From an uncultured Gammaproteobacteria bacterium (GTDB lineage: Bacteria > Patescibacteriota > Patescibacteriia > UBA9934 > CAZDDW01): 64,000 bases of DNA. How positions within the stretch are numbered: position 1 is the stretch's first letter; the number at the start of each line of letters is the position of its first letter. Below, one piece after another: positions 38,837 to 44,909 of the stretch. The position numbers were made by a program, and so were the translations under genes. The notes beneath the pieces are model-generated. The model made no database searches. It worked only from the letters and a program-made list of their open reading frames with translations, and was not told where the DNA came from. The stretch spans positions 132,293 to 196,292 of the forward strand of contig CAZDDW010000001.1 in NCBI GenBank assembly GCA_964504365.1, given 5' to 3'.

Positions 38837-39169
38837 ATGTTTCCTTTGCAAAATGCCAATCTTTGGAACGAGAGCTTGAAAGTGGTTTCTCAATGTCCGC
38901 TGTGCCAATCGCGTCAAAATGATATGGAGGCACGTATGCTTGGGCAGGACGGCGAGGCCCGCTTGTTGTACTTGAATTGCCACAAATGTGGAAATTCGTT
39001 ACTAGCTCTTGTTTTAGTTTCGCATGGTGGAGTAAGTTCGATCGGCATGGTCACAGATCTGACTTACGACGATGTCCGGCGGTTTCACCAGGTCGACCAA
39101 GTTTGCACAGATGATGTGCTGGATATACATCAGGCTTTACAGGATCAAGATTTCATGAAAGCAATATAA
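38837..39169 (+). CDS. small zinc-ribbon protein
   Basis: CPLC...CHKC pairs. Confidence 0.4.
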   Translation: MFPLQNANLWNESLKVVSQCPLCQSRQNDMEARMLGQDGEARLLYLNCHKCGNSLLALVLVSHGGVSSIGMVTDLTYDDVRRFHQVDQVCTDDVLDIHQALQDQDFMKAI

Positions 39170-39182
39170 TAAAAAGAAAGCG

Positions 39183-39210
39183 GACCATCCTGGCGGATGG
39201 TCCTTTTTTG
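39183..39210. terminator. bidirectional intrinsic terminator bounding the cassette array
   Basis: ggaccatcc-tggc-ggatggtcc hairpin with A-run before and T6 after. Confidence 0.65.
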
Positions 39211-39224
39211 ATCCCGAGTTACGG

Positions 39225-39770
39225 TTAGGGCAAGAGCTTGGACAGCTCGTTGATGATGCCCGCGTCGTGGTCCGGGTGAAGGGAAGGTTCTCGGTGGCAG
39301 GAGCCGTGGCAGGGGACCAGCTTGACCGAGTGTTCCTGGTGGTGCGGCGAGTTGGGGTCGGCCCAGTGGCTGAAGTCGGTGCGGATGATCAGGTGCTGGT
39401 CGCCAAGGCAATAGTCGATACCGCTGCCGGAGCGCTTGGCGTAGTAACGATCAAAGCGAGCGCCGACGATCGGCTGACCACTGTCGATTAGTTCCTGAAC
39501 TCCATCGCCGAGGGTGATCTGGCTGTGCAGGGTGCGTTTGCCGTCCTGAAGGGTCTTGCTTCGCCAGCGCTTGATCATCTTGGCCAGCTCGATCGCTTTC
39601 ATGCGCTGCTGCACCTGGCAGGAACCGTCACAGGGGCCATGCACATCTTCCAGCCCGGTTTCGCAGTTGTAGGTTACGTGAATCAGGCCATTGACGCACC
39701 AGTACTGGTCATCGATTCCATCGACCGAGTCGGCGTCATAAACCACAACGTGAAGGCGAGGGGAAGTCAT
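39225..39770 (-). CDS. array gene A: Cys/His-rich hypothetical protein
   Basis: ORF track 39225-39830; start ATG 39770 after GGAG, 33 nt downstream of repeat R1; GC-rich. Confidence 0.45.
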   Translation of the reverse strand: MTSPRLHVVVYDADSVDGIDDQYWCVNGLIHVTYNCETGLEDVHGPCDGSCQVQQRMKAIELAKMIKRWRSKTLQDGKRTLHSQITLGDGVQELIDSGQPIVGARFDRYYAKRSGSGIDYCLGDQHLIIRTDFSHWADPNSPHHQEHSVKLVPCHGSCHREPSLHPDHDAGIINELSKLLP

Positions 39771-39803
39771 AAGACATCTCCGTTGATTGTTTGAAAGTAC
39801 GTT

Positions 39804-39843
39804 CCCATCACAGAACACGATCGTGGTCATGTGCTTTGATTGG
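39804..39843. repeat. array palindromic repeat R1 (cccatcacagaacacgat-cgtg-gtcatgtgctttgattgg)
   Basis: imperfect inverted repeat; matches consensus shared by seven copies. Confidence 0.8.
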
Positions 39844-39877
39844 AGCTCGATTTGTAGGCATCGAGCAGGCCTCCTTT

Positions 39878-40177
39878 CTAGGGAAGTAGATGGTTAACAT
39901 CAATGGCATGGCAAATGACGACCTGGTCTCCCGTAACCAGTACGCCGAGTTCGCTATCCACAATTTCCTTGGCTCCGTGCTCCTTGTGTTTGCAACGAAT
40001 GGCCACGCGCACTCGATGCGTTTTTCCGGTCAGATTCAGCTGAGCGTAGACAGTACAGCCGTGTTGGCATTCTGGTTGGATTCGGTGGTCAAGGGTGTCG
40101 AGATGGTGCATGATCAGGTCATCAGCGTCTCCCGTGACCTTCCAGTTGCCATAGTTCGGATAAAAACTCTCGTACAT
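39878..40177 (-). CDS. array gene B: hypothetical protein
   Basis: ORF track 39878-40219 (its first ATG lies inside R2); likely start M15 at 40177 after GGGGA RBS. Confidence 0.4.
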   Translation of the reverse strand: MYESFYPNYGNWKVTGDADDLIMHHLDTLDHRIQPECQHGCTVYAQLNLTGKTHRVRVAIRCKHKEHGAKEIVDSELGVLVTGDQVVICHAIDVNHLLP

Positions 40178-40211
40178 TGTGTCCCCTAAGAATTTAGTGT
40201 TGAAGGATCGA

Positions 40212-40252
40212 TCCATCACAGAACACGATCATGATCATGTGCTCTGATGGGG
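40212..40252. repeat. array palindromic repeat R2
   Basis: tccatcacagaacacgat-catg-atcatgtgctctgatgggg. Confidence 0.8.
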
Positions 40253-40269
40253 TGCCCAAGAAGATTGGG

Positions 40270-40815
40270 CTAGTGAGTGGCCTGCCAAGGCCGTTGATTG
40301 CGGCCTGTGATCCGTTGCAGGACCAAGGTCAGCGAAGGTGGGGCGTGGGGAAGCAGGGCCTCCCGGATCCGGTGGCGACGCTGGTATCTGGCGTCACGGC
40401 GAAGGTGGGGGAAGAGCGGAGCTAGTTCCGGGTCGCTCAGGTTATCGAACACGTGCAGGTACAACAGGCGGAAGTTTTCCTCGGCCGAAGCCGCCTGCTT
40501 GTCGGGCATCTGCTCTCGTGCTCTGGCTGCCGTTGCCCAGAACTGGGATCGGGCTCGCTCGAAGGTTTCCTGCCAGCGCTGTCGTTCGCGTTCCTGTGCT
40601 TGTCGTATGCGCTCACGCTTCTCGGCGTTGGCCAGGGCCACGGCGTGTCGCTGCTGGTCAATGGACCAGTTCATGGCCAGTCGGTGGGCGTAGGCGGTGG
40701 GGTTGTCCGGTTGGGCCTGTTCGACCCGGCCGACCAGCTCGTCGAGCTTGTCGGGGCTGCAGGTTTGACCGTAACGGTCGATCACGTCGGAGATTACAGT
40801 ACGGATGTCAGTCAT
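40270..40815 (-). CDS. array gene C: Arg/Glu-rich coiled-coil hypothetical protein
   Basis: ORF track 40270-40851; start ATG 40815, 28 nt downstream of R3. Confidence 0.45.
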   Translation of the reverse strand: MTDIRTVISDVIDRYGQTCSPDKLDELVGRVEQAQPDNPTAYAHRLAMNWSIDQQRHAVALANAEKRERIRQAQERERQRWQETFERARSQFWATAARAREQMPDKQAASAEENFRLLYLHVFDNLSDPELAPLFPHLRRDARYQRRHRIREALLPHAPPSLTLVLQRITGRNQRPWQATH

Positions 40816-40843
40816 CTGGGGTTCCTTGCGGATAGGGACGATT

Positions 40844-40883
40844 CCCATCACAGAACACGATTTTCATCATGTGCTCTGAAGGG
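40844..40883. repeat. array palindromic repeat R3
   Basis: cccatcacagaacacgat-tttc-atcatgtgctctgaaggg. Confidence 0.8.
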
Positions 40884-41237
40884 TTGCCCGACCAGAACGG
40901 CCGGGCAAGAGGCGCAACTCACTGACAGTGGTATCAGTCAGAGGATGCTGTGACGGTGCGAAAACAACTGCTTGTCCCACCCCATGACAGATCAAGGGGC
41001 CTATTCCTGACCTGCCATGAGTATGACATGGCAACCTAACACCCAAGAGTGCCACTTCGTTAGGTGCTGGTTGACAGCTGCAAACCACCAATCGCTGGGT
41101 TTTTCAGTTCTCCTGCGTATACCAACGCACATGCCTTTAATGGATAAACCCAGAAACCAGAAGTACTACCGGGGAAACATGTAACCCCATGTTATTAGGA
41201 CACTGCCTTGATCCTTTGTTTTCTGTTTTGTGTTATT

Positions 41238-41277
41238 CCCATCACAGAACACGATTTAGATCATGGGCTATGATGGG
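41238..41277. repeat. array palindromic repeat R4 (followed by an empty slot, no convincing ORF to R3)
   Basis: cccatcacagaacacgat-ttag-atcatgggctatgatggg. Confidence 0.8.
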
Positions 41278-41585
41278 TGCCCGAGGATTCGGGCAAGAAG
41301 TATAGGAGGGGGAGACACGATGGAAACGTGTAGCTTTTGTGAGTGCTAAGGGCTAAATCTTCAGCGCTAATGGTTGAGGGCTAAGTCTTTGAATGCTGAA
41401 CCCTGAGGCCATAGCCTTCGCTGTCGATGTCAAGCTCTTAGAGCATCGGCGTAAGCCGAGCACTCCTGGCGTCCTTTCGGACGATCAGTTTGTTACTACA
41501 TATCTCGACCGTGCTCCCCCCACCAAATTGGACTGAACCGTTAGGGCTGGGGGCCCTTGGGAACAGTGTCAATCTAGTGTTTTTC

Positions 41586-42103
41586 CTAATTCGTCGGGAG
41601 GGGGGTGGTGTGGTTGGTGGACTCGAGAAGGTCGTTCAGGGCCTCGATCCGTTCTTGCAGTCGCTCGATACGCTGGACGCGCTCGGGTTCGTGCAGAGCG
41701 GCTTCGTAGGTTACCATCTCGTACTCGGTCTCGTAGGTCCGCGGGTTGGTGCCGGTCTGCTCGCGGCGATCGCCGTAGGTCAGGTTCAGACGCTGCCAGA
41801 AAGCGATCTCGCCAGCCAGCTCGCTCTTCAGGCGAACGGCCAGGGTCAGGCTGATCTGGCGGTCCTCGAACTCGATCGTCGTCGTCGCGTTGGCCTCGGC
41901 GATGCCGGCTCGCAGGCTCATCAGCTCCTCGACCAGCTCCTGGCGCTGGGCGACCAGATCGTCGAAGACGAACTCTGGTTCCAGGTCCTGGCGCCAGCTG
42001 ACGTGGGCCTCGGACGCTGGGTGATGGTACTGATGCGTCCCTCGATTCGGCTGGCGTTGCGCAAGGCCTGGGCGATGGTCAGGGTGGTCTGGGTGGCGGT
42101 CAT
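41586..42103 (-). pseudogene. array gene D: hypothetical protein interrupted by a frameshift near 41921
   Basis: two ORFs (42103-41921, 60 aa; 41921-41586, 111 aa) abut in different frames; first starts 35 nt downstream of R5 after AGGGAG RBS. Confidence 0.4.
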
Positions 42104-42138
42104 GTCAATGTCTCCCTATTGGGTGTTGAAGGTTCGTT

Positions 42139-42178
42139 CCCATCACAGAACACGATTTAGATCATGGGCTATGATGGG
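42139..42178. repeat. array palindromic repeat R5
   Basis: identical to R4 across the element. Confidence 0.8.
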
Positions 42179-42228
42179 TGGCTCTGAGCCGCAGAGCGTG
42201 CCAGCAAGGACTGCTGGACTTTGGTGGG

Positions 42229-42489
42229 CTAAAGGTGGAAGAGGGTTTTCCACTCGCCGTCACACCGTTTCTCGACGTAGTGTGAGGTCTGGACGTGACT
42301 CCCGGTCACCGGGTCCTCGTGGTAGTCGTGAGGAGGAGTGTAGAATCCCGATGTCTCGAAGCGGTCCCTGCCTGGCGTTTTGTCGAATTTTCCGCGCCAC
42401 AGCACTTGGCAAGTCCCTTCTGTACAACCGGAGCCATCTCCTTGGTAAAGGTGGTAGGTGAAAGTTCGGCGGACAATGCGGAACAACAT
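42229..42489 (-). CDS. array gene E: hypothetical protein
   Basis: ORF track 42229-42531; start ATG 42489 after GGAG, 27 nt downstream of R6. Confidence 0.4.
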   Translation of the reverse strand: MLFRIVRRTFTYHLYQGDGSGCTEGTCQVLWRGKFDKTPGRDRFETSGFYTPPHDYHEDPVTGSHVQTSHYVEKRCDGEWKTLFHL

Positions 42490-42516
42490 AGGAGACTCCG
42501 GTGGATAGGGATGATT

Positions 42517-42555
42517 CCCATCACAGAACACGATTTAGATCATGGGCTATGATGG
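42517..42555. repeat. array palindromic repeat R6
   Basis: cccatcacagaacacgat-ttag-atcatgggctatgatgga. Confidence 0.8.
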
Positions 42556-42864
42556 ACACCCGGCACGTATTGCCAGGTGGAAAGAAGTTGGGGAAGACAC
42601 GCTATCAACCCGGAATGGTGATGATCCAGGGTACCCTGGATTTACGAACGCCGACCAAGGCGCCATCACCTTACGTCACTCTGGTGCACCTCTTCCGTCG
42701 AAGAGAGTGCTTATACCCATCAGAGCATGGGGTCCCATCAGCGTGAGCTGCGGGAGAGCAAGAACTCTTTAGACGCTTCGAGTGCTTGCCGGGGTCCGTG
42801 TGTTTGGTCGATGGTGGTCACCTATCTGGCCGACACACCCACACCACCCCTGGATATTTAATGT

Positions 42865-42904
42865 CCCATCACAGAACATGATTTAGATCATGTGCTCTGA
42901 TGGG
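42865..42904. repeat. array palindromic repeat R7 (downstream slot about 310 bp without ORF; contains relic ctgatggg fragments)
   Basis: cccatcacagaacatgat-ttag-atcatgtgctctgatgggg. Confidence 0.8.
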
Positions 42905-42944
42905 GTGCCCAGATAACTGGGCAGAAGTGGAGCGGTGGGTAGGC

Positions 42945-43196
42945 CTAGGCGGCCTGTGGGAGCTCCTGGGGCGGGGTCTCGCGGCGCTCATCGGGCTGAC
43001 CCGGGCGGCGCAAGATACGGACGTAGGGCTGTGCGGGGCTGGGCTGACGCGACTCGGCACGCAGCTGTTGAGGCGAGGTGGTGAACCAGGCTCGAAGTCG
43101 GTGTACGTTTCCGTAGCAGTTGGTGTTGAAGTTGCGCATTTGCTGTCCCCTTTGTGTGTTGAACGAACATTCAGTTTTACCCTGAACGCTGATCAC
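42945..43196 (-). CDS. array-proximal low-complexity ORF (GTG start; alternative ATG 43139)
   Basis: only ORF between R7 and the control region; no repeat upstream; weak. Confidence 0.2.
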   Translation of the reverse strand: MISVQGKTECSFNTQRGQQMRNFNTNCYGNVHRLRAWFTTSPQQLRAESRQPSPAQPYVRILRRPGQPDERRETPPQELPQAA

Positions 43197-43478
43197 CTCC
43201 TGGCCTTCTCTCCAAAGGTCAGTGCTGGTGAGGTGAATCAGTCTTCAAGGTAAAATAAGTTGTAATGTCTTGATTTGCCTTGGCCAGATCGTCGCTGTGT
43301 GTTCGTAAGCTCTGCTCGAGCTTATTACCTCCTGGAATCAGATTGAACCGACTGGCGATAGATCTAGTGGTTCTTATCAAGCATGGAGCTAAGAACCGCT
43401 ACGCATTTAGGCAAAATAAAACGATGCTAGTGAGTATGTGGCTTGCTGGAGCCACAGATCGACCAGCATCGAACAAAG

Positions 43479-43507
43479 CATACTAGCATGGATTTAAAAA
43501 CTTGTCA
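43479..43507 (-). promoter_or_regulatory. promoter TTGACA-17-TAGTAT pointing into the array, followed about 15-65 nt downstream by a hairpin plus U-run (attenuator or short sRNA)
   Basis: hexamers and spacing; minus-strand hairpin gatgctggtcgatctgtggctcc...gccacatactcactagcatc then GTTTTATTTTG at about 43400-43465. Confidence 0.45.
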
Positions 43508-43612
43508 AGCCCTGGTGTACAAACCAGGTTTTTTTGTAGATTATTTCGCTAAATTTAGGTAAGTCAGATAAAAAAATAGGTCCAGGCATGCCGGACAAGG
43601 TCTTGCTTTGGG

Positions 43613-43641
43613 CTTGACAAAATAGCCGTTTTATGCTATAC
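43613..43641 (+). promoter_or_regulatory. promoter TTGACA-17-TATACT (plus), divergent from the array promoter
   Basis: perfect -35, 17-nt spacer, TATACT -10. Confidence 0.55.
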
Positions 43642-43649
43642 TTGCTTGT

Positions 43650-44133
43650 TCCTGTGAAAACCGTTGGATTTTGTTCCGGGATCTATCTCGGCTTAATCTG
43701 CTTTTTTCGACAGGCTACCGTGAGGAGGATATATGAAGATGGGTGATTGATGACCGAGTTTCAGGGTTACAGCTTCACAAGATGGGCTGCGGCTAGATTC
43801 CACAATGGAGAACCAAGGAAAACGATCCTTTTACTGCTACGGGTAGCCCCCGAGTTGACAATGGGACAAGGCTGAGGTTTCCAAGCCGATCTGCCGGAAG
43901 ACGCCGGCGATCAGATCGCGCCAGTTAAGGGCGCAAACGATGACGAACAAAGGAGGGTGCAACGTGCACTCCTAAGTCGCGATAGGCGACATCTTCGACA
44001 CCGAAACCAGCCAAGCTCCGAATGTCAACAGTCCGCCAACGAAAGGAGGCGAACATGGGTGGCTAGCCCTCTTGGACCCGGCTCGGACGCGCACTTCAGC
44101 GCGTCCGGGTCGGGACCAGATACTCAATAAGAA
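43650..44133 (+). ncRNA. candidate about 500-nt noncoding or small-ORF transcript of unknown function
   Basis: bounded by strong promoter and terminator; no ORF >=60 aa; GAGGAGG RBS with 5-codon uORF (MKMGD) overlapping the ATG of a 41-codon ORF; 19-bp-stem hairpin 44066-44109. Confidence 0.3.
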
Positions 44134-44163
44134 AACCTGCCTAATGGCAGGTCTATTTGTTTT
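44134..44163. terminator. bidirectional intrinsic terminator
   Basis: acctgcc-taat-ggcaggt hairpin with T-run after and A-run before. Confidence 0.6.
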
Positions 44164-44168
44164 CAAAA

Positions 44169-44909
44169 TTATTTGTTGTATTTATTCCAAAGCCCTTTTA
44201 GCAAAGCTCGTTGTGTGGCAGCAAAGTCCTTATTCTCAATAACAATCATGTTACCACCCTTTTCAAAACTGACCATAACCACTGTGTCGTCGTATACAGC
44301 AACGTCACCTTTGAATTCGCCAATGTCTTTTTTATCGACCTTGCAATAACTGACCATCTCTCGATTCCTTATTTTATCGCCTGAATGCATGAAGTATACT
44401 CTAACATTCTTTAGTTCCATTCCTTGTCTGGCTTGGTCAACTGTTTCTTTTGTAAAGTGTTTATAGAGTTCATCAACATTTGACAGCTCGTACATTTCCT
44501 TAGGTTTTTTTTTACATACATCATCAAAGAAAGCATAAAACATTTCTGTGCCTTGGAAAAAGCGGACCTTTGGCCGTTCGCCACCCGCCAGTAGTATCAG
44601 GTCATCTAGCTTTTTTTCAATTAAAGATACTTTATTTGAGAATTCAAGTTGCTGTCCTTGCAAGTGTTGAAGAAGTCGATCCGGCTCTTCAGCAACATAG
44701 AGTGTTTTTTTACCACGTTGGTAAGTAGAAAAAAGCTCTTTGCTTTTTAGGTTTTCGATTGCATCATAAGCTGCGGTCCGTGATAACTTGGCTGCTTTGG
44801 CAATGTCTTGAACACTGGCTGCGCCGAGCTTGAGTCCGGCTAGATAAGTTTTGGCTTCAGACTCGGTCATGCCGAGCGCGTGAAGGATTGAAGTAAAGTC
44901 AGTTGGCAT
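44169..44909 (-). CDS. TrmB-family transcriptional regulator
   Basis: N-terminal winged HTH LGMTESEAKTYLAGLKLGAASVQDIAKAAKLSRTAAYDAIENL typical of TrmB; low GC. Confidence 0.6.
   Translation of the reverse strand: MPTDFTSILHALGMTESEAKTYLAGLKLGAASVQDIAKAAKLSRTAAYDAIENLKSKELFSTYQRGKKTLYVAEEPDRLLQHLQGQQLEFSNKVSLIEKKLDDLILLAGGERPKVRFFQGTEMFYAFFDDVCKKKPKEMYELSNVDELYKHFTKETVDQARQGMELKNVRVYFMHSGDKIRNREMVSYCKVDKKDIGEFKGDVAVYDDTVVMVSFEKGGNMIVIENKDFAATQRALLKGLWNKYNK

What the first reader, a model, noticed from the sequence alone, without database searches (positions are those of the whole stretch)
39183..43210. Repeat-delimited array of small GC-rich genes: seven copies of a 40-bp imperfect palindrome, each immediately upstream of a minus-strand ORF or an empty slot
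Seven copies of CCCATCACAGAACACGAT-N4-ATCATGTGCTCTGATGGG start at 39804, 40212, 40844, 41238, 42139, 42517 and 42865; the arms are about 15/18 self-complementary. Each copy lies 27-35 nt upstream of the probable start codon of a co-oriented small ORF (A 39770, B 40177, C 40815, D 42103, E 42489), and each ORF has its own GGAG-type RBS. In two cases the ATG inside the repeat (ATCATG) opens a spurious N-terminal extension. The ORFs have no recognisable family. The block looks clearly GC-richer than the flanking rodA and TrmB genes and is bounded by terminator hairpins. Two slots (after R4 and R7) carry no ORF and one gene (D) is frameshifted. The one-repeat-per-gene geometry resembles an integron-like cassette array (attC then a short spacer then the next ORF), or a tightly co-regulated operator regulon. 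The repeat lacks the canonical attC R-box (GTTRRRY), and no integrase or other recombinase is visible in the window.
Basis: seen in the sequence. Interest (0 to 1): 0.85.

Follow-up and report, generated by a model that had tools for sequence, protein, structure and literature searches.

The report
Hairpin-punctuated variable gene-cassette operon
A 4.3-kb GC-rich operon in the core chromosome of an uncultured marine bacterium consists of small genes and structured RNAs, each separated by the same 40-base hairpin-forming repeat, and close relatives carry different genes between the same repeats, so it behaves like an integron-style cassette array but has none of the integron's defining parts.

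Summary
Seven copies of a 40-nt imperfect palindrome (PAL) sit exactly where stated, and nowhere else in the 64 kb.

Read on the coding (minus) strand, every junction has the same layout: stop codon, a variable GC hairpin, PAL, a 27-35 nt CA-rich leader with a Shine-Dalgarno sequence, then ATG.

By consensus signals the block is one transcription unit. It has a near-consensus sigma70 promoter (43508-43480), a 335-nt structured leader, an overlooked first gene F, and a terminator at 39182-39203.

The "empty slots" are not empty. One holds a conserved structured RNA (X) and another folds very strongly (Y). Gene C is an ECF-sigma-like protein.

Related contigs carry the same PAL (89% column identity) between different cassettes. 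Homology breaks at the junctions, and one 507-bp single-cassette indel has its crossover inside PAL.

The attC core, an integrase, phage context and genome-wide spread are all absent.

My best reading, at moderate confidence, is that PAL acts as a hairpin in the polycistronic transcript, marking each cassette for processing, stability or translation, and that it also provides the homology at which cassettes are exchanged. A promoter/operator role and a novel recombination site remain live rivals.

The parts
43480..43508 (-). Array promoter: TTGACA-17-TAGTAT with a TG extension
   Evidence: 10 of 12 consensus positions. Conserved in the Tara contig L069. It is one of only two sigma70-like sites on the coding strand of the block, and the only strong one; a weak 9/12 match lies at 41326-41299.
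43140..43474 (-). Structured 335-nt leader between the promoter and gene F
   Evidence: MFE -117 kcal/mol, z = -5.7. It is 92% identical in L069, with a compensatory change in one stem (TGTGGCT..AGCCACA to TATGGCT..AGCCATA). No Rfam match.
42945..43139 (-). Gene F, 64 aa, Arg-rich; first gene of the operon and not preceded by the repeat
   Evidence: ORF. It is 87.5% identical to the Tara homologue. GC3 is 0.77. No family found.
42865..42904 (-). PAL copy R7, with its preceding variable hairpin at 42906-42923
42557..42864 (-). Cassette X: a non-coding structured RNA (conserved core about 42581-42720), ending in hairpin 42557-42579
   Evidence: Conserved in two copies on Tara contig L069. RNAalifold finds 55 pairs, 13 of them with compensatory changes. 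z = -3.7. No codon periodicity.
42517..42556 (-). PAL copy R6
42229..42489 (-). Gene E, 86 aa, Cys-containing
   Evidence: GC3 is 0.67. No family found.
42139..42178 (-). PAL copy R5, with its preceding hairpin at about 42180-42197
41586..42103 (-). Gene D, interrupted by a frameshift (frames switch near 42020-41990)
   Evidence: Three-frame translation. The same sequence appears in independent assemblies. There is a weak PHROG coiled-coil/tail-fibre hit, E = 7.6e-6.
41278..41585 (-). Y: 308-nt non-coding stretch after D, strongly structured, ending in hairpin 41278-41295
   Evidence: MFE -125.4 kcal/mol, z = -7.3. No codon periodicity.
41238..41277 (-). PAL copy R4
40884..41237 (-). [not shown]
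   Evidence: z = -2.5 only. No homologue among the held loci. Possibly a decayed cassette.
40844..40883 (-). PAL copy R3
40270..40815 (-). Gene C, 181 aa: ECF-sigma-like protein with two helical domains joined by a long linker helix
40212..40251 (-). PAL copy R2, with its preceding hairpin at 40254-40270
39878..40177 (-). Gene B, 99 aa, Cys/His-rich; the family recurs as paralogues in related arrays
   Evidence: Only four family members among 5.8 billion proteins, all located in PAL arrays. The structure model was unusable.
39804..39843 (-). PAL copy R1 (the most diverged), with its preceding hairpin at 39845-39866
39225..39770 (-). Gene A, 181 aa, with two PCDGSC-type motifs; last gene of the operon
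   Evidence: Three family members. No family found.
39182..39203 (.). Bidirectional intrinsic terminator closing the operon
43614..44160 (+). Divergent unit: near-consensus promoter (43614-43642) and a ~510-nt structured non-coding transcript ending at terminator 44133-44154. Its link to the array is not shown.
   Evidence: Promoter matches 11 of 12 positions. z = -5.8. No Rfam, tRNA or tmRNA match. The promoter is conserved in L069.

Best explanation
The block is a single, strongly transcribed operon of exchangeable cassettes in the core chromosome. The cassettes are small Cys/His-rich proteins, an ECF-sigma-like protein, and structured RNAs.

PAL is the conserved half of a two-part junction element (variable hairpin plus PAL). 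I think it most likely works as a stem-loop in the sense transcript, directly upstream of each cassette's CA-rich leader and ribosome-binding site. There it would mark each cassette for processing, 5'-end protection or translational control. Its sequence is conserved far beyond what pairing alone requires, so I infer that a sequence-specific factor recognises it.

The copies are near-identical direct repeats, so they are also the points at which cassettes are lost, gained and swapped.

Shown:
- the anatomy of the block;
- a single strong sigma70-like promoter on the coding strand (plus one weak 9/12 match at 41326-41299) and the terminator;
- the conservation of PAL and its hairpin potential;
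- cassette turnover with breakpoints at the junctions;
- the sigma-like fold of C;
- the structured RNAs.

Inferred:
- polycistronic transcription;
- action at the RNA level;
- the existence and identity of a binding factor;
- recombination by ordinary homologous exchange rather than by a dedicated enzyme.
For: 1. Pairing. 93.8% of cells pair. Three pairs change on both sides, and the covariation score exceeds all 500 shuffles and all slid controls. Position 15/26 is U-G, C-G or U-A and is never a mismatch.
2. Diverged copies on Tara contig L069 (starting at 1046 and 2065) keep a two-part stem with a different lower-stem sequence and a different arm length. They fold only on the sense strand (-15.9 and -13.0 kcal/mol against -5.8 and -5.3). 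A double-stranded operator or a -35/-10 pair would not tolerate that change in spacing.
3. In L055 the junction before A' has lost PAL but carries an unrelated 8-bp hairpin at the same position. In L074 a C homologue is flanked on both sides by a different 108-nt repeat made of two adjacent hairpins.
4. Between the strong sigma70-like promoter (43508-43480) and the terminator (39182-39203) the only other sigma70-like site on the coding strand is a weak 9/12 match at 41326-41299, and no terminator-like site lies on that strand. All PAL copies therefore lie inside one predicted transcript. X copy 2 in L069 follows a gene with no PAL in between.
5. Constraint. PAL has 89% mean column identity across lineages, whereas GyrB is 85%, RodA 71%, C 37-60%, B 49% and A 31% identical at the protein level.
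6. Turnover at junctions.
Against: - Stem sequence is conserved much more strongly than in the neighbouring hairpins, which covary freely. That pattern is more typical of double-stranded DNA sites read by proteins.
- The bias towards sense-strand wobble pairs in the canonical copies is weak (12 G-U-type against 7 A-C-type cells, and the copies are not independent).
- An ECF-sigma-like gene is a conserved member of these arrays. PAL ends at about the distance upstream of the start codons expected for a promoter.
- On the two strands PAL reads AGAGCAC-N16-TCTGT and AGAACAC-N16-TCTGA. This resembles ECF-type -35/-10 spacing (from my own knowledge; not tested).
- No transcript data exist, and no candidate RNA-binding or RNA-cleaving protein was identified.
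Confidence: 0.4

Rival explanations
1. PAL is a promoter plus operator, so each cassette is its own transcription unit. Under this model the array's ECF-sigma-like protein C (or host RNAP) initiates just downstream of PAL, a dimeric regulator binds the inner palindrome CAYGAT-N4-ATCRTG, and the variable hairpin before PAL terminates the previous unit.
For: - C has a sigma2/sigma4-like fold and is present in at least four PAL or PAL-like arrays.
- PAL ends 27-35 nt before the start codons.
- The gene-proximal arm is the better conserved one.
- The stem sequence is conserved overall rather than covarying.
- PAL is about 40 bp long, the size of a promoter footprint.
Against: - The diverged copies in L069 shift the spacing between the conserved blocks by about 3 nt, and the apical arms are separated by 5-7 nt across junction types, yet the hairpin is kept.
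- Complementarity of the outer 7 bp, and compensatory changes that differ between copies of one array, serve no purpose in a promoter.
- A' in L055 has no PAL but keeps a hairpin.
- The variable hairpins lack U-tracts.
- More distant C homologues (L072, L075, L076) have no PAL nearby.
Confidence: 0.25
2. PAL is the recombination site of a new integron-like system. A recombinase encoded elsewhere in the genome, or an activity of the island itself, would recognise the folded single-stranded hairpin and insert or excise cassettes, with the conserved promoter-leader-F region acting as the platform.
For: - The head region (promoters, leader, F) is 93% identical in L069, followed by entirely different cassettes.
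- There is a single-cassette indel with a hybrid repeat.
- ORF-less cassettes occur.
- Cassette composition is heterogeneous: GC3 0.36-0.86 against 0.32-0.48 in host genes.
- The mismatches at stem positions 8 and 11 are conserved.
- Neighbouring copies share loop sequences.
- The locus is fixed between the same flanks in three lineages.
Against: - There is no GTTRRRY/RYYYAAC core, no extrahelical bases, and the element is only 40 nt long.
- No repeat follows the last cassette.
- No recombinase was found in the 64 kb.
- The indel crossover falls in 34 bp of perfect identity, which ordinary homologous recombination explains.
- C-B-A order is conserved between lineages.
- The repeat is absent from 185,579 species-representative genomes, IMG/VR, phages and plasmids.
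Confidence: 0.12
3. PAL is a selfish miniature repeat (REP-, BIME- or MITE-like) that happened to spread within this locus.
For: It is an imperfect palindrome of REP-like size, located in intergenic positions.
Against: - All copies have one orientation and lie at a fixed distance from start codons.
- None lies elsewhere in the 64 kb, or in 15 kb of another contig (L072) from the same sample as the related L055 lineage.
- The sequence is conserved across lineages whose proteins are 31-85% identical.
- No RAYT or IS200-like gene is present.
Confidence: 0.04

Closest known systems
Integron cassette arrays and CALINs (attC sites)
   Same: - Co-oriented, mostly single-gene, promoterless cassettes lie behind one strong promoter in a conserved platform.
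- An imperfect palindromic hairpin with conserved mismatches sits at every junction.
- ORF-less cassettes occur, and cassette composition is heterogeneous.
- Cassette content differs between close relatives, with breakpoints at the repeats.
- The repeats are highly similar within an array, as in sedentary chromosomal integrons.
(Integron features from PMC8876359 and PMC6557892; data here.)
   Different: - There is no GTTRRRY/RYYYAAC core.
- The element is 40 nt long with equal arms and no bulged bases.
- No integrase was found in the 64 kb.
- The repeat precedes each cassette, and none follows the last one.
- A separate variable hairpin accompanies every copy.
- A structured RNA gene, not intI, lies divergent from the array promoter.
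Extended start-associated sequences (ESAS) of Cluster K mycobacteriophages
   Same: - Imperfect inverted repeats of about 17 bp, separated by a short variable spacer (4-13 bp), lie just upstream of the translation starts of a subset of genes.
- They all share one orientation.
- One arm is better conserved than the other.
- They are conserved across genomes in front of unrelated genes.
- Their function is still unknown.
(PMC3203893, PMC12699233.)
   Different: - The sequences are unrelated.
- The accompanying 13-nt SAS motif is absent.
- The context is chromosomal, in a low-GC uncultured marine bacterium, not a phage.
- Copies are confined to one operon, and cassette turnover occurs at the repeats.
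Intercistronic hairpins of polycistronic mRNAs (RNase III sites of the phage T7 early operon; REP stabilisers in E. coli operons). Established knowledge, not tested here.
   Same: One long transcript carries a hairpin of about two helical turns, with internal mismatches, between successive cistrons. A 3' hairpin is left on the upstream part and a 5' hairpin on the downstream part.
   Different: Those hairpins are not conserved at about 90% sequence identity across species. REP elements are genome-wide. No cleavage data exist here.
Regulons of ECF or phage-encoded sigma factors, with a repeated conserved promoter in front of each unit
   Same: A sigma-like gene sits inside the array. A conserved element of about 40 bp lies at promoter distance from each start codon.
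   Different: Conservation covers the would-be spacer. The whole element is self-complementary with compensatory changes. Spacing varies in the diverged copies.

Membership tests
Integron / CALIN attC site | Inverse core and core sites (RYYYAAC ... GTTRRRY) at the two ends of the repeat | tested here: not met
   Neither motif occurs within 15 nt of any of the seven copies, on either strand. There are 5 occurrences in the 4-kb array against 7.0 +/- 2.8 in shuffles. Core definition from PMC8876359.
Integron / CALIN attC site | Single-strand hairpin with extrahelical bases and an unpaired central spacer, roughly 55-140 nt long (dimensions from my own knowledge) | tested here: not met
   A hairpin is present, but it is only 40 nt long. 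Its arms are equal at 18 nt, with two conserved mismatched positions and no bulges. IntegronFinder's attC model could not be run.
Integron | IntI tyrosine recombinase gene next to the array, divergent from the cassette promoter | tested here: not met
   The divergent unit is a ~510-nt non-coding transcript. No recombinase domain was found in the 30 large ORFs scanned, nor in the precomputed Pfam calls for the neighbourhood. The rest of the genome was not available.
Integron / CALIN | Cassette content varies between relatives, with boundaries at the repeats | tested here: met
   Different cassettes lie behind a head region that is 93% identical. Different cassettes lie ahead of a conserved C-B-A block. 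Homology ends at the junctions. There is a 507-bp one-unit indel with a hybrid repeat.
ESAS/SAS of Cluster K mycobacteriophages | Imperfect inverted repeats of about 17 bp with a short spacer, upstream of start codons | tested here: met
   18-nt arms, a 4-nt spacer, and 27-35 nt to the ATG. Definition from PMC3203893.
ESAS/SAS of Cluster K mycobacteriophages | Association with the 13-nt SAS GGGATAGGAGCCC, and a phage genome context | tested here: not met
   No SAS match with up to 2 mismatches. No DNA or protein similarity to 50,697 phage records. The flanks are housekeeping genes.
REP/BIME elements | Many copies dispersed through the genome, with an associated RAYT transposase | tested here: not met
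   Copies occur only inside the array within the 64 kb. No IS200/RAYT-like domain was found. The whole genome was not available.
CRISPR array | Short direct repeats regularly spaced by spacers of about 30-40 nt, usually with cas genes | tested here: not met
   The spacings are 348-901 nt and are filled with genes. No cas domains were found.
ECF sigma factor (for gene C only) | Sigma-70 region 2 and region 4 domains | tested here: inconclusive
   [not shown]
Intrinsic terminator (for PAL) | GC-rich hairpin followed by a U-tract | tested here: not met
   No PAL copy and no preceding variable hairpin is listed by the terminator scan. Only the sites at 39182-39203, 43511-43528, 43580-43596 and 44133-44154, plus two weak 5-bp sites at 41315-41331 (+) and 43957-43969 (-), qualify.

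The most novel reading that the evidence does not exclude
This would be a previously unrecognised gene-capture system, functionally parallel to integrons but built from different parts. A conserved platform consists of two divergent strong promoters, a ~510-nt structured RNA in the position where integrons carry intI, a 335-nt structured leader and the small basic protein F. That platform would acquire and express cassettes, both protein genes and structured RNAs, through a 40-nt hairpin site, using a recombination activity that is not a nearby tyrosine integrase and is possibly RNA-dependent.
Probability: 0.1. Interest if true: 0.95.

Novelty: new variant of a known kind. Interest (0 to 1): 0.72.

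Why it matters
If the array is what it appears to be, it is a second, independent solution to a problem integrons solve: how to keep a set of exchangeable, promoterless genes expressed from one platform. It occurs in a small-genome uncultured marine bacterium where no integron machinery is visible.

It also makes a testable case for a sequence-specific intercistronic hairpin signal, because the junction element is kept at about 90% identity while the genes around it turn over. Such a signal would be of practical interest as a natural insulator between cistrons.

The island additionally contributes several uncatalogued items:
- four structured RNAs with no Rfam family (the leader, X, Y and the divergent transcript);
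- a clade of ECF-sigma-like proteins with a 60-residue linker helix;
- three orphan protein families (A, B, F) found almost nowhere else in 5.8 billion proteins.

Tried and rejected
**Searches for known RNAs.** Rfam at gathering thresholds over the whole window, and at E <= 10 over 39100-44200, gave only noise. ARAGORN found no tRNA or tmRNA, so there is no tRNA-type integration site.

**Protein family libraries.** Pfam, PHROGs, PADLOC and NCBIfam gave nothing credible for A, B, D, E or F.

**Phage or plasmid origin.** The whole block and PAL (blastn), and A and C (tblastn), found nothing in the phage collection except one 24-nt chance match. PAL (blastn) also found nothing in the plasmid collection. 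Three pattern scans of IMG/VR found only seven single chance 17-mers, then nothing.

**Species-representative genomes.** The scan returned 38 single 17-mer hits, none extending to the palindrome.

**Metagenome scan.** It returned nine loci, of which only one (L065) was a true array.

**Ideas rejected.**
- CRISPR was rejected on spacing.
- The TrmB TGM motif was rejected on half-site spacing, by eye only.
- A dif/Xer site was rejected on composition and arm/spacer geometry, by eye only.
- An ANTAR dual-hexaloop target was rejected because the loops are not conserved.
- An HUH nuclease motif was looked for in A and none was seen in the alignment.
- Assembly chimera was rejected because the identical block occurs in nine independent contigs from different samples.

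**Not resolved.** I could not determine the organism's taxonomy. The small housekeeping gene set suggests a reduced-genome lineage, but that is only an inference.

Full report
**Observation.** The repeat is real and sits at the stated coordinates.
- Seven matches to the 40-nt pattern (at most 3 mismatches) start at 39804, 40212, 40844, 41238, 42139, 42517 and 42865, with none in 100 shuffles.
- The left-arm 13-mer and a covariance model built later find no further copy in the 64-kb window.
- The block is 51-65% GC against 38-46% in the flanks.
- Its genes have third-codon-position GC (GC3) of 0.58-0.85, against 0.36-0.48 for rodA, gyrB and the TrmB-like gene.
- The gaps between repeat and start codon are 27-35 nt. 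D is frameshifted. An intrinsic terminator closes the block at 39182-39203.

**Anatomy on the coding (minus) strand.** Every junction has the same order:
- the stop codon of the upstream unit;
- a GC-rich hairpin of variable sequence;
- then immediately the repeat, CCCATCAGAGCACATGAT-N4-ATCGTGTTCTGTGATGGG (here called PAL);
- a CA-rich leader with a G-rich Shine-Dalgarno sequence;
- the ATG.

- A further co-oriented gene F (43139-42945) precedes the first repeat.
- Canonical transcription signals define one unit. A near-consensus promoter lies at 43508-43480 (TTGACA-17-TAGTAT with TG). The only other sigma70-like site on the coding strand of the block is a weak 9/12 match at 41326-41299, and the terminator is at 39182-39203. 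Between promoter and F lies a 335-nt leader that folds far better than shuffles (z = -5.7).
- The 'empty' stretches are not empty. The slot after R7 (X) is conserved in relatives and has 13 base pairs with compensatory changes among three copies. The 308 nt after D (Y) fold with z = -7.3. Only the slot after R4 (Z) looks decayed (z = -2.5).

None of these stretches shows codon periodicity, and none matches Rfam.

**Relatives.** Homologues of A, B and C are extremely rare: two other A-family members, four B-family members including B itself, and one close C homologue among 5.8 billion proteins. Their contigs were the key evidence.
- Nine contigs from different samples carry the identical block, so this is not an assembly artefact.
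- A related lineage (L055-L059; GyrB 85%, RodA 71% identical) has the array at the same place next to rodA and the 110-aa CxxC gene. It has five copies of the same PAL and a different gene set: 73-aa, 132-aa and 89-aa genes, then C' (60%), B' (49%) and A' (31%).
- A Tara Oceans contig (L069) is 93% identical through both promoters, the leader and F. It then continues with X, a distant B paralogue, a new gene, a second X and another new gene.
- A second Tara contig (L073) has a canonical PAL in front of a C homologue that is only 37% identical.
- Nucleotide homology between arrays begins and ends at the junctions.
- L056 differs from L057 by exactly one 507-bp unit. The remaining repeat has the left flank of one copy and the right flank of the next.
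- Cassette GC3 ranges from 0.36 to 0.86.

**The repeat itself.** Across 14 distinct copies from four contig families the mean column identity is 89%. That is far above what the protein divergence would allow for unconstrained intergenic DNA.
- The stem pairs in 93.8% of cells. Three pairs change on both sides, and the covariation score exceeds all 500 shuffles and all slid controls.
- Position 15/26 is U-G, C-G or U-A and is never mismatched. Positions 8/33 and 11/30 are almost always mismatched.
- Two diverged copies in L069 are too different for the covariance model to find. They still keep a two-part stem, with a different lower-stem sequence and different arm lengths, and they fold only on the sense strand.
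- In L055 the A' junction has lost PAL but has an unrelated 8-bp hairpin in its place.
- In L074 a C homologue is flanked on both sides by a different 108-nt repeat, 94% identical between the two copies, made of two adjacent hairpins.
- What all junction types share is an apical stem CAYGA-loop-UCRUG, with the arms 5-7 nt apart.

These facts favour a folded single strand over a double-stranded protein site with fixed half-site spacing. The strand preference among the canonical copies alone is weak (12 against 7 cells).

Sequence support is weak. I therefore call C ECF-sigma-like, not a proven sigma factor. More distant C homologues sit alone, without PAL.

A, B, D, E and F match no family in Pfam, PHROGs, PADLOC or NCBIfam. 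A carries two PCDGSC motifs. B-family paralogues recur within arrays. The model of B was unusable.

**What it is not.**
- There is no GTTRRRY/RYYYAAC core near any copy.
- There are no bulged bases, and no repeat follows the last cassette.
- There is no recombinase among the 30 large ORFs scanned or in the precomputed annotations. The window is a housekeeping stretch: PheST, DnaE, ThrRS, MiaA/B, GatB, Tmk, ThyX, QueA, S2, EF-Ts, GAPDH, PGK, enolase.
- There is no similarity to phages, plasmids or IMG/VR contigs.
- There is no second true copy in 185,579 species-representative genomes.
- It is therefore not an integron or CALIN by membership, not a phage region, not a REP-type dispersed repeat and not a CRISPR array.

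**Mechanism.** My preferred model (confidence about 0.4) is a single polycistronic transcript in which PAL folds directly upstream of each cassette's translation initiation region. A sequence-specific factor would recognise it to process, protect or gate each cassette. The near-identical copies would incidentally provide the homology for cassette exchange.

The main rival (about 0.25) is a promoter/operator read by the sigma-like protein C. It explains the sequence conservation and the distance to the start codons. It does not explain the full-length self-complementarity, the compensatory changes, or the spacing variation.

A dedicated recombination site for an unknown enzyme (about 0.12) would make this a true integron analogue. 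The platform-like conservation of the head region, and the structured RNA in the position where intI would sit, are suggestive. However, the only crossover observed lies in 34 bp of perfect identity and needs no special enzyme.

**Comparison with known systems.** In behaviour the closest system is the integron cassette array. In form the closest is the ESAS of Cluster K mycobacteriophages: 17-bp imperfect inverted repeats with a 4-13 bp spacer upstream of start codons, whose function was still unknown in 2025 (PMC3203893, PMC12699233). PAL shares neither the sequence, the SAS partner nor the phage context of ESAS. I rate it a new variant of a known kind, of high interest mainly because the comparative data already show cassette turnover around a strongly constrained junction element whose mode of action can be settled by simple transcript mapping.

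Noticed in passing
window 43614-44160 (+): A near-consensus sigma70 promoter (TTGACA-17-TATACT, with TG) drives a ~510-nt non-coding, GC-richer stretch that ends at the terminator 44133-44154. It folds with z = -5.8 and contains a perfect 16-bp hairpin at 44073-44118. It has no Rfam, tRNA or tmRNA match. It lies divergent from the array promoter, in the position where an integron would carry intI.
   Followed up: partly
window 43140-43474 (-): The 335-nt leader of the array is highly structured (z = -5.7). It is 92% identical in the Tara contig L069, with a compensatory stem change. It could be an uncatalogued cis-regulatory RNA.
   Followed up: partly
window 42581-42720 (-); L069 876-1028 and 1889-2040: The X element has a conserved multi-stem core: a 7-bp closing stem GGUGAUG/CAUCACC enclosing two hairpins, followed by a further hairpin. 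13 of its pairs show compensatory changes. There is no Rfam family. Two copies occur in one Tara array.
   Followed up: partly
window 42716-42741 (+): Inside the window's copy of X, the opposite strand carries partial PAL arms (CCCATCAGAGCA and CCCATCAG). They lie in a segment that is absent from the Tara X copies. This may be a relic of an inverted or aborted recombination at a PAL.
   Followed up: no
window 38837-39169 (+): A 110-aa protein with two CxxC pairs lies convergent with gene A and shares its terminator. It is the conserved neighbour of the array in three lineages (the window, L055 3244-3576, and the contig of P0002). It has host-like GC. Its function is unknown.
   Followed up: no
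L057 66-1504; L056 1-1384: An ISL3-family insertion sequence (28-nt inverted repeats, DDE_Tnp_ISL3 transposase) is inserted at the head of the array in the L055 lineage, apparently within the leader. It replaces the position of gene F.
   Followed up: partly
L074 297-410 and 968-1080: A more distant C homologue (34% identical) is flanked on both sides by a different 108-nt repeat, 94% identical between the two copies, that begins with two adjacent perfect hairpins. This suggests that 'sigma-like gene plus repeated hairpin junctions' is a wider theme.
   Followed up: partly
window 38943-38976 and 39878-40177 (variants in L048 and L051): Population variants exist among otherwise identical contigs. 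There is a 34-bp deletion in the 110-aa gene (L048), and an 18-nt in-frame deletion plus 11 substitutions around gene B (L051).
   Followed up: no
window 39804-42904, all PAL copies: On the + strand PAL reads AGAACAC-N16-TCTGA, and on the coding strand AGAGCAC-N16-TCTGT. The first resembles the -35/-10 geometry of E. coli sigmaE-type promoters (from my own knowledge). The conserved arm asymmetry at positions 8 and 11 is what creates the difference between the two strands. An antisense promoter function was not tested.
   Followed up: no
L072 5420-5720: Upstream of a stand-alone C paralogue, in a contig from the same sample as the related L055 lineage, lies a ~640-nt gene-free stretch with its own sigma70-like promoter and apparent secondary structure. 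It was not analysed.
   Followed up: no
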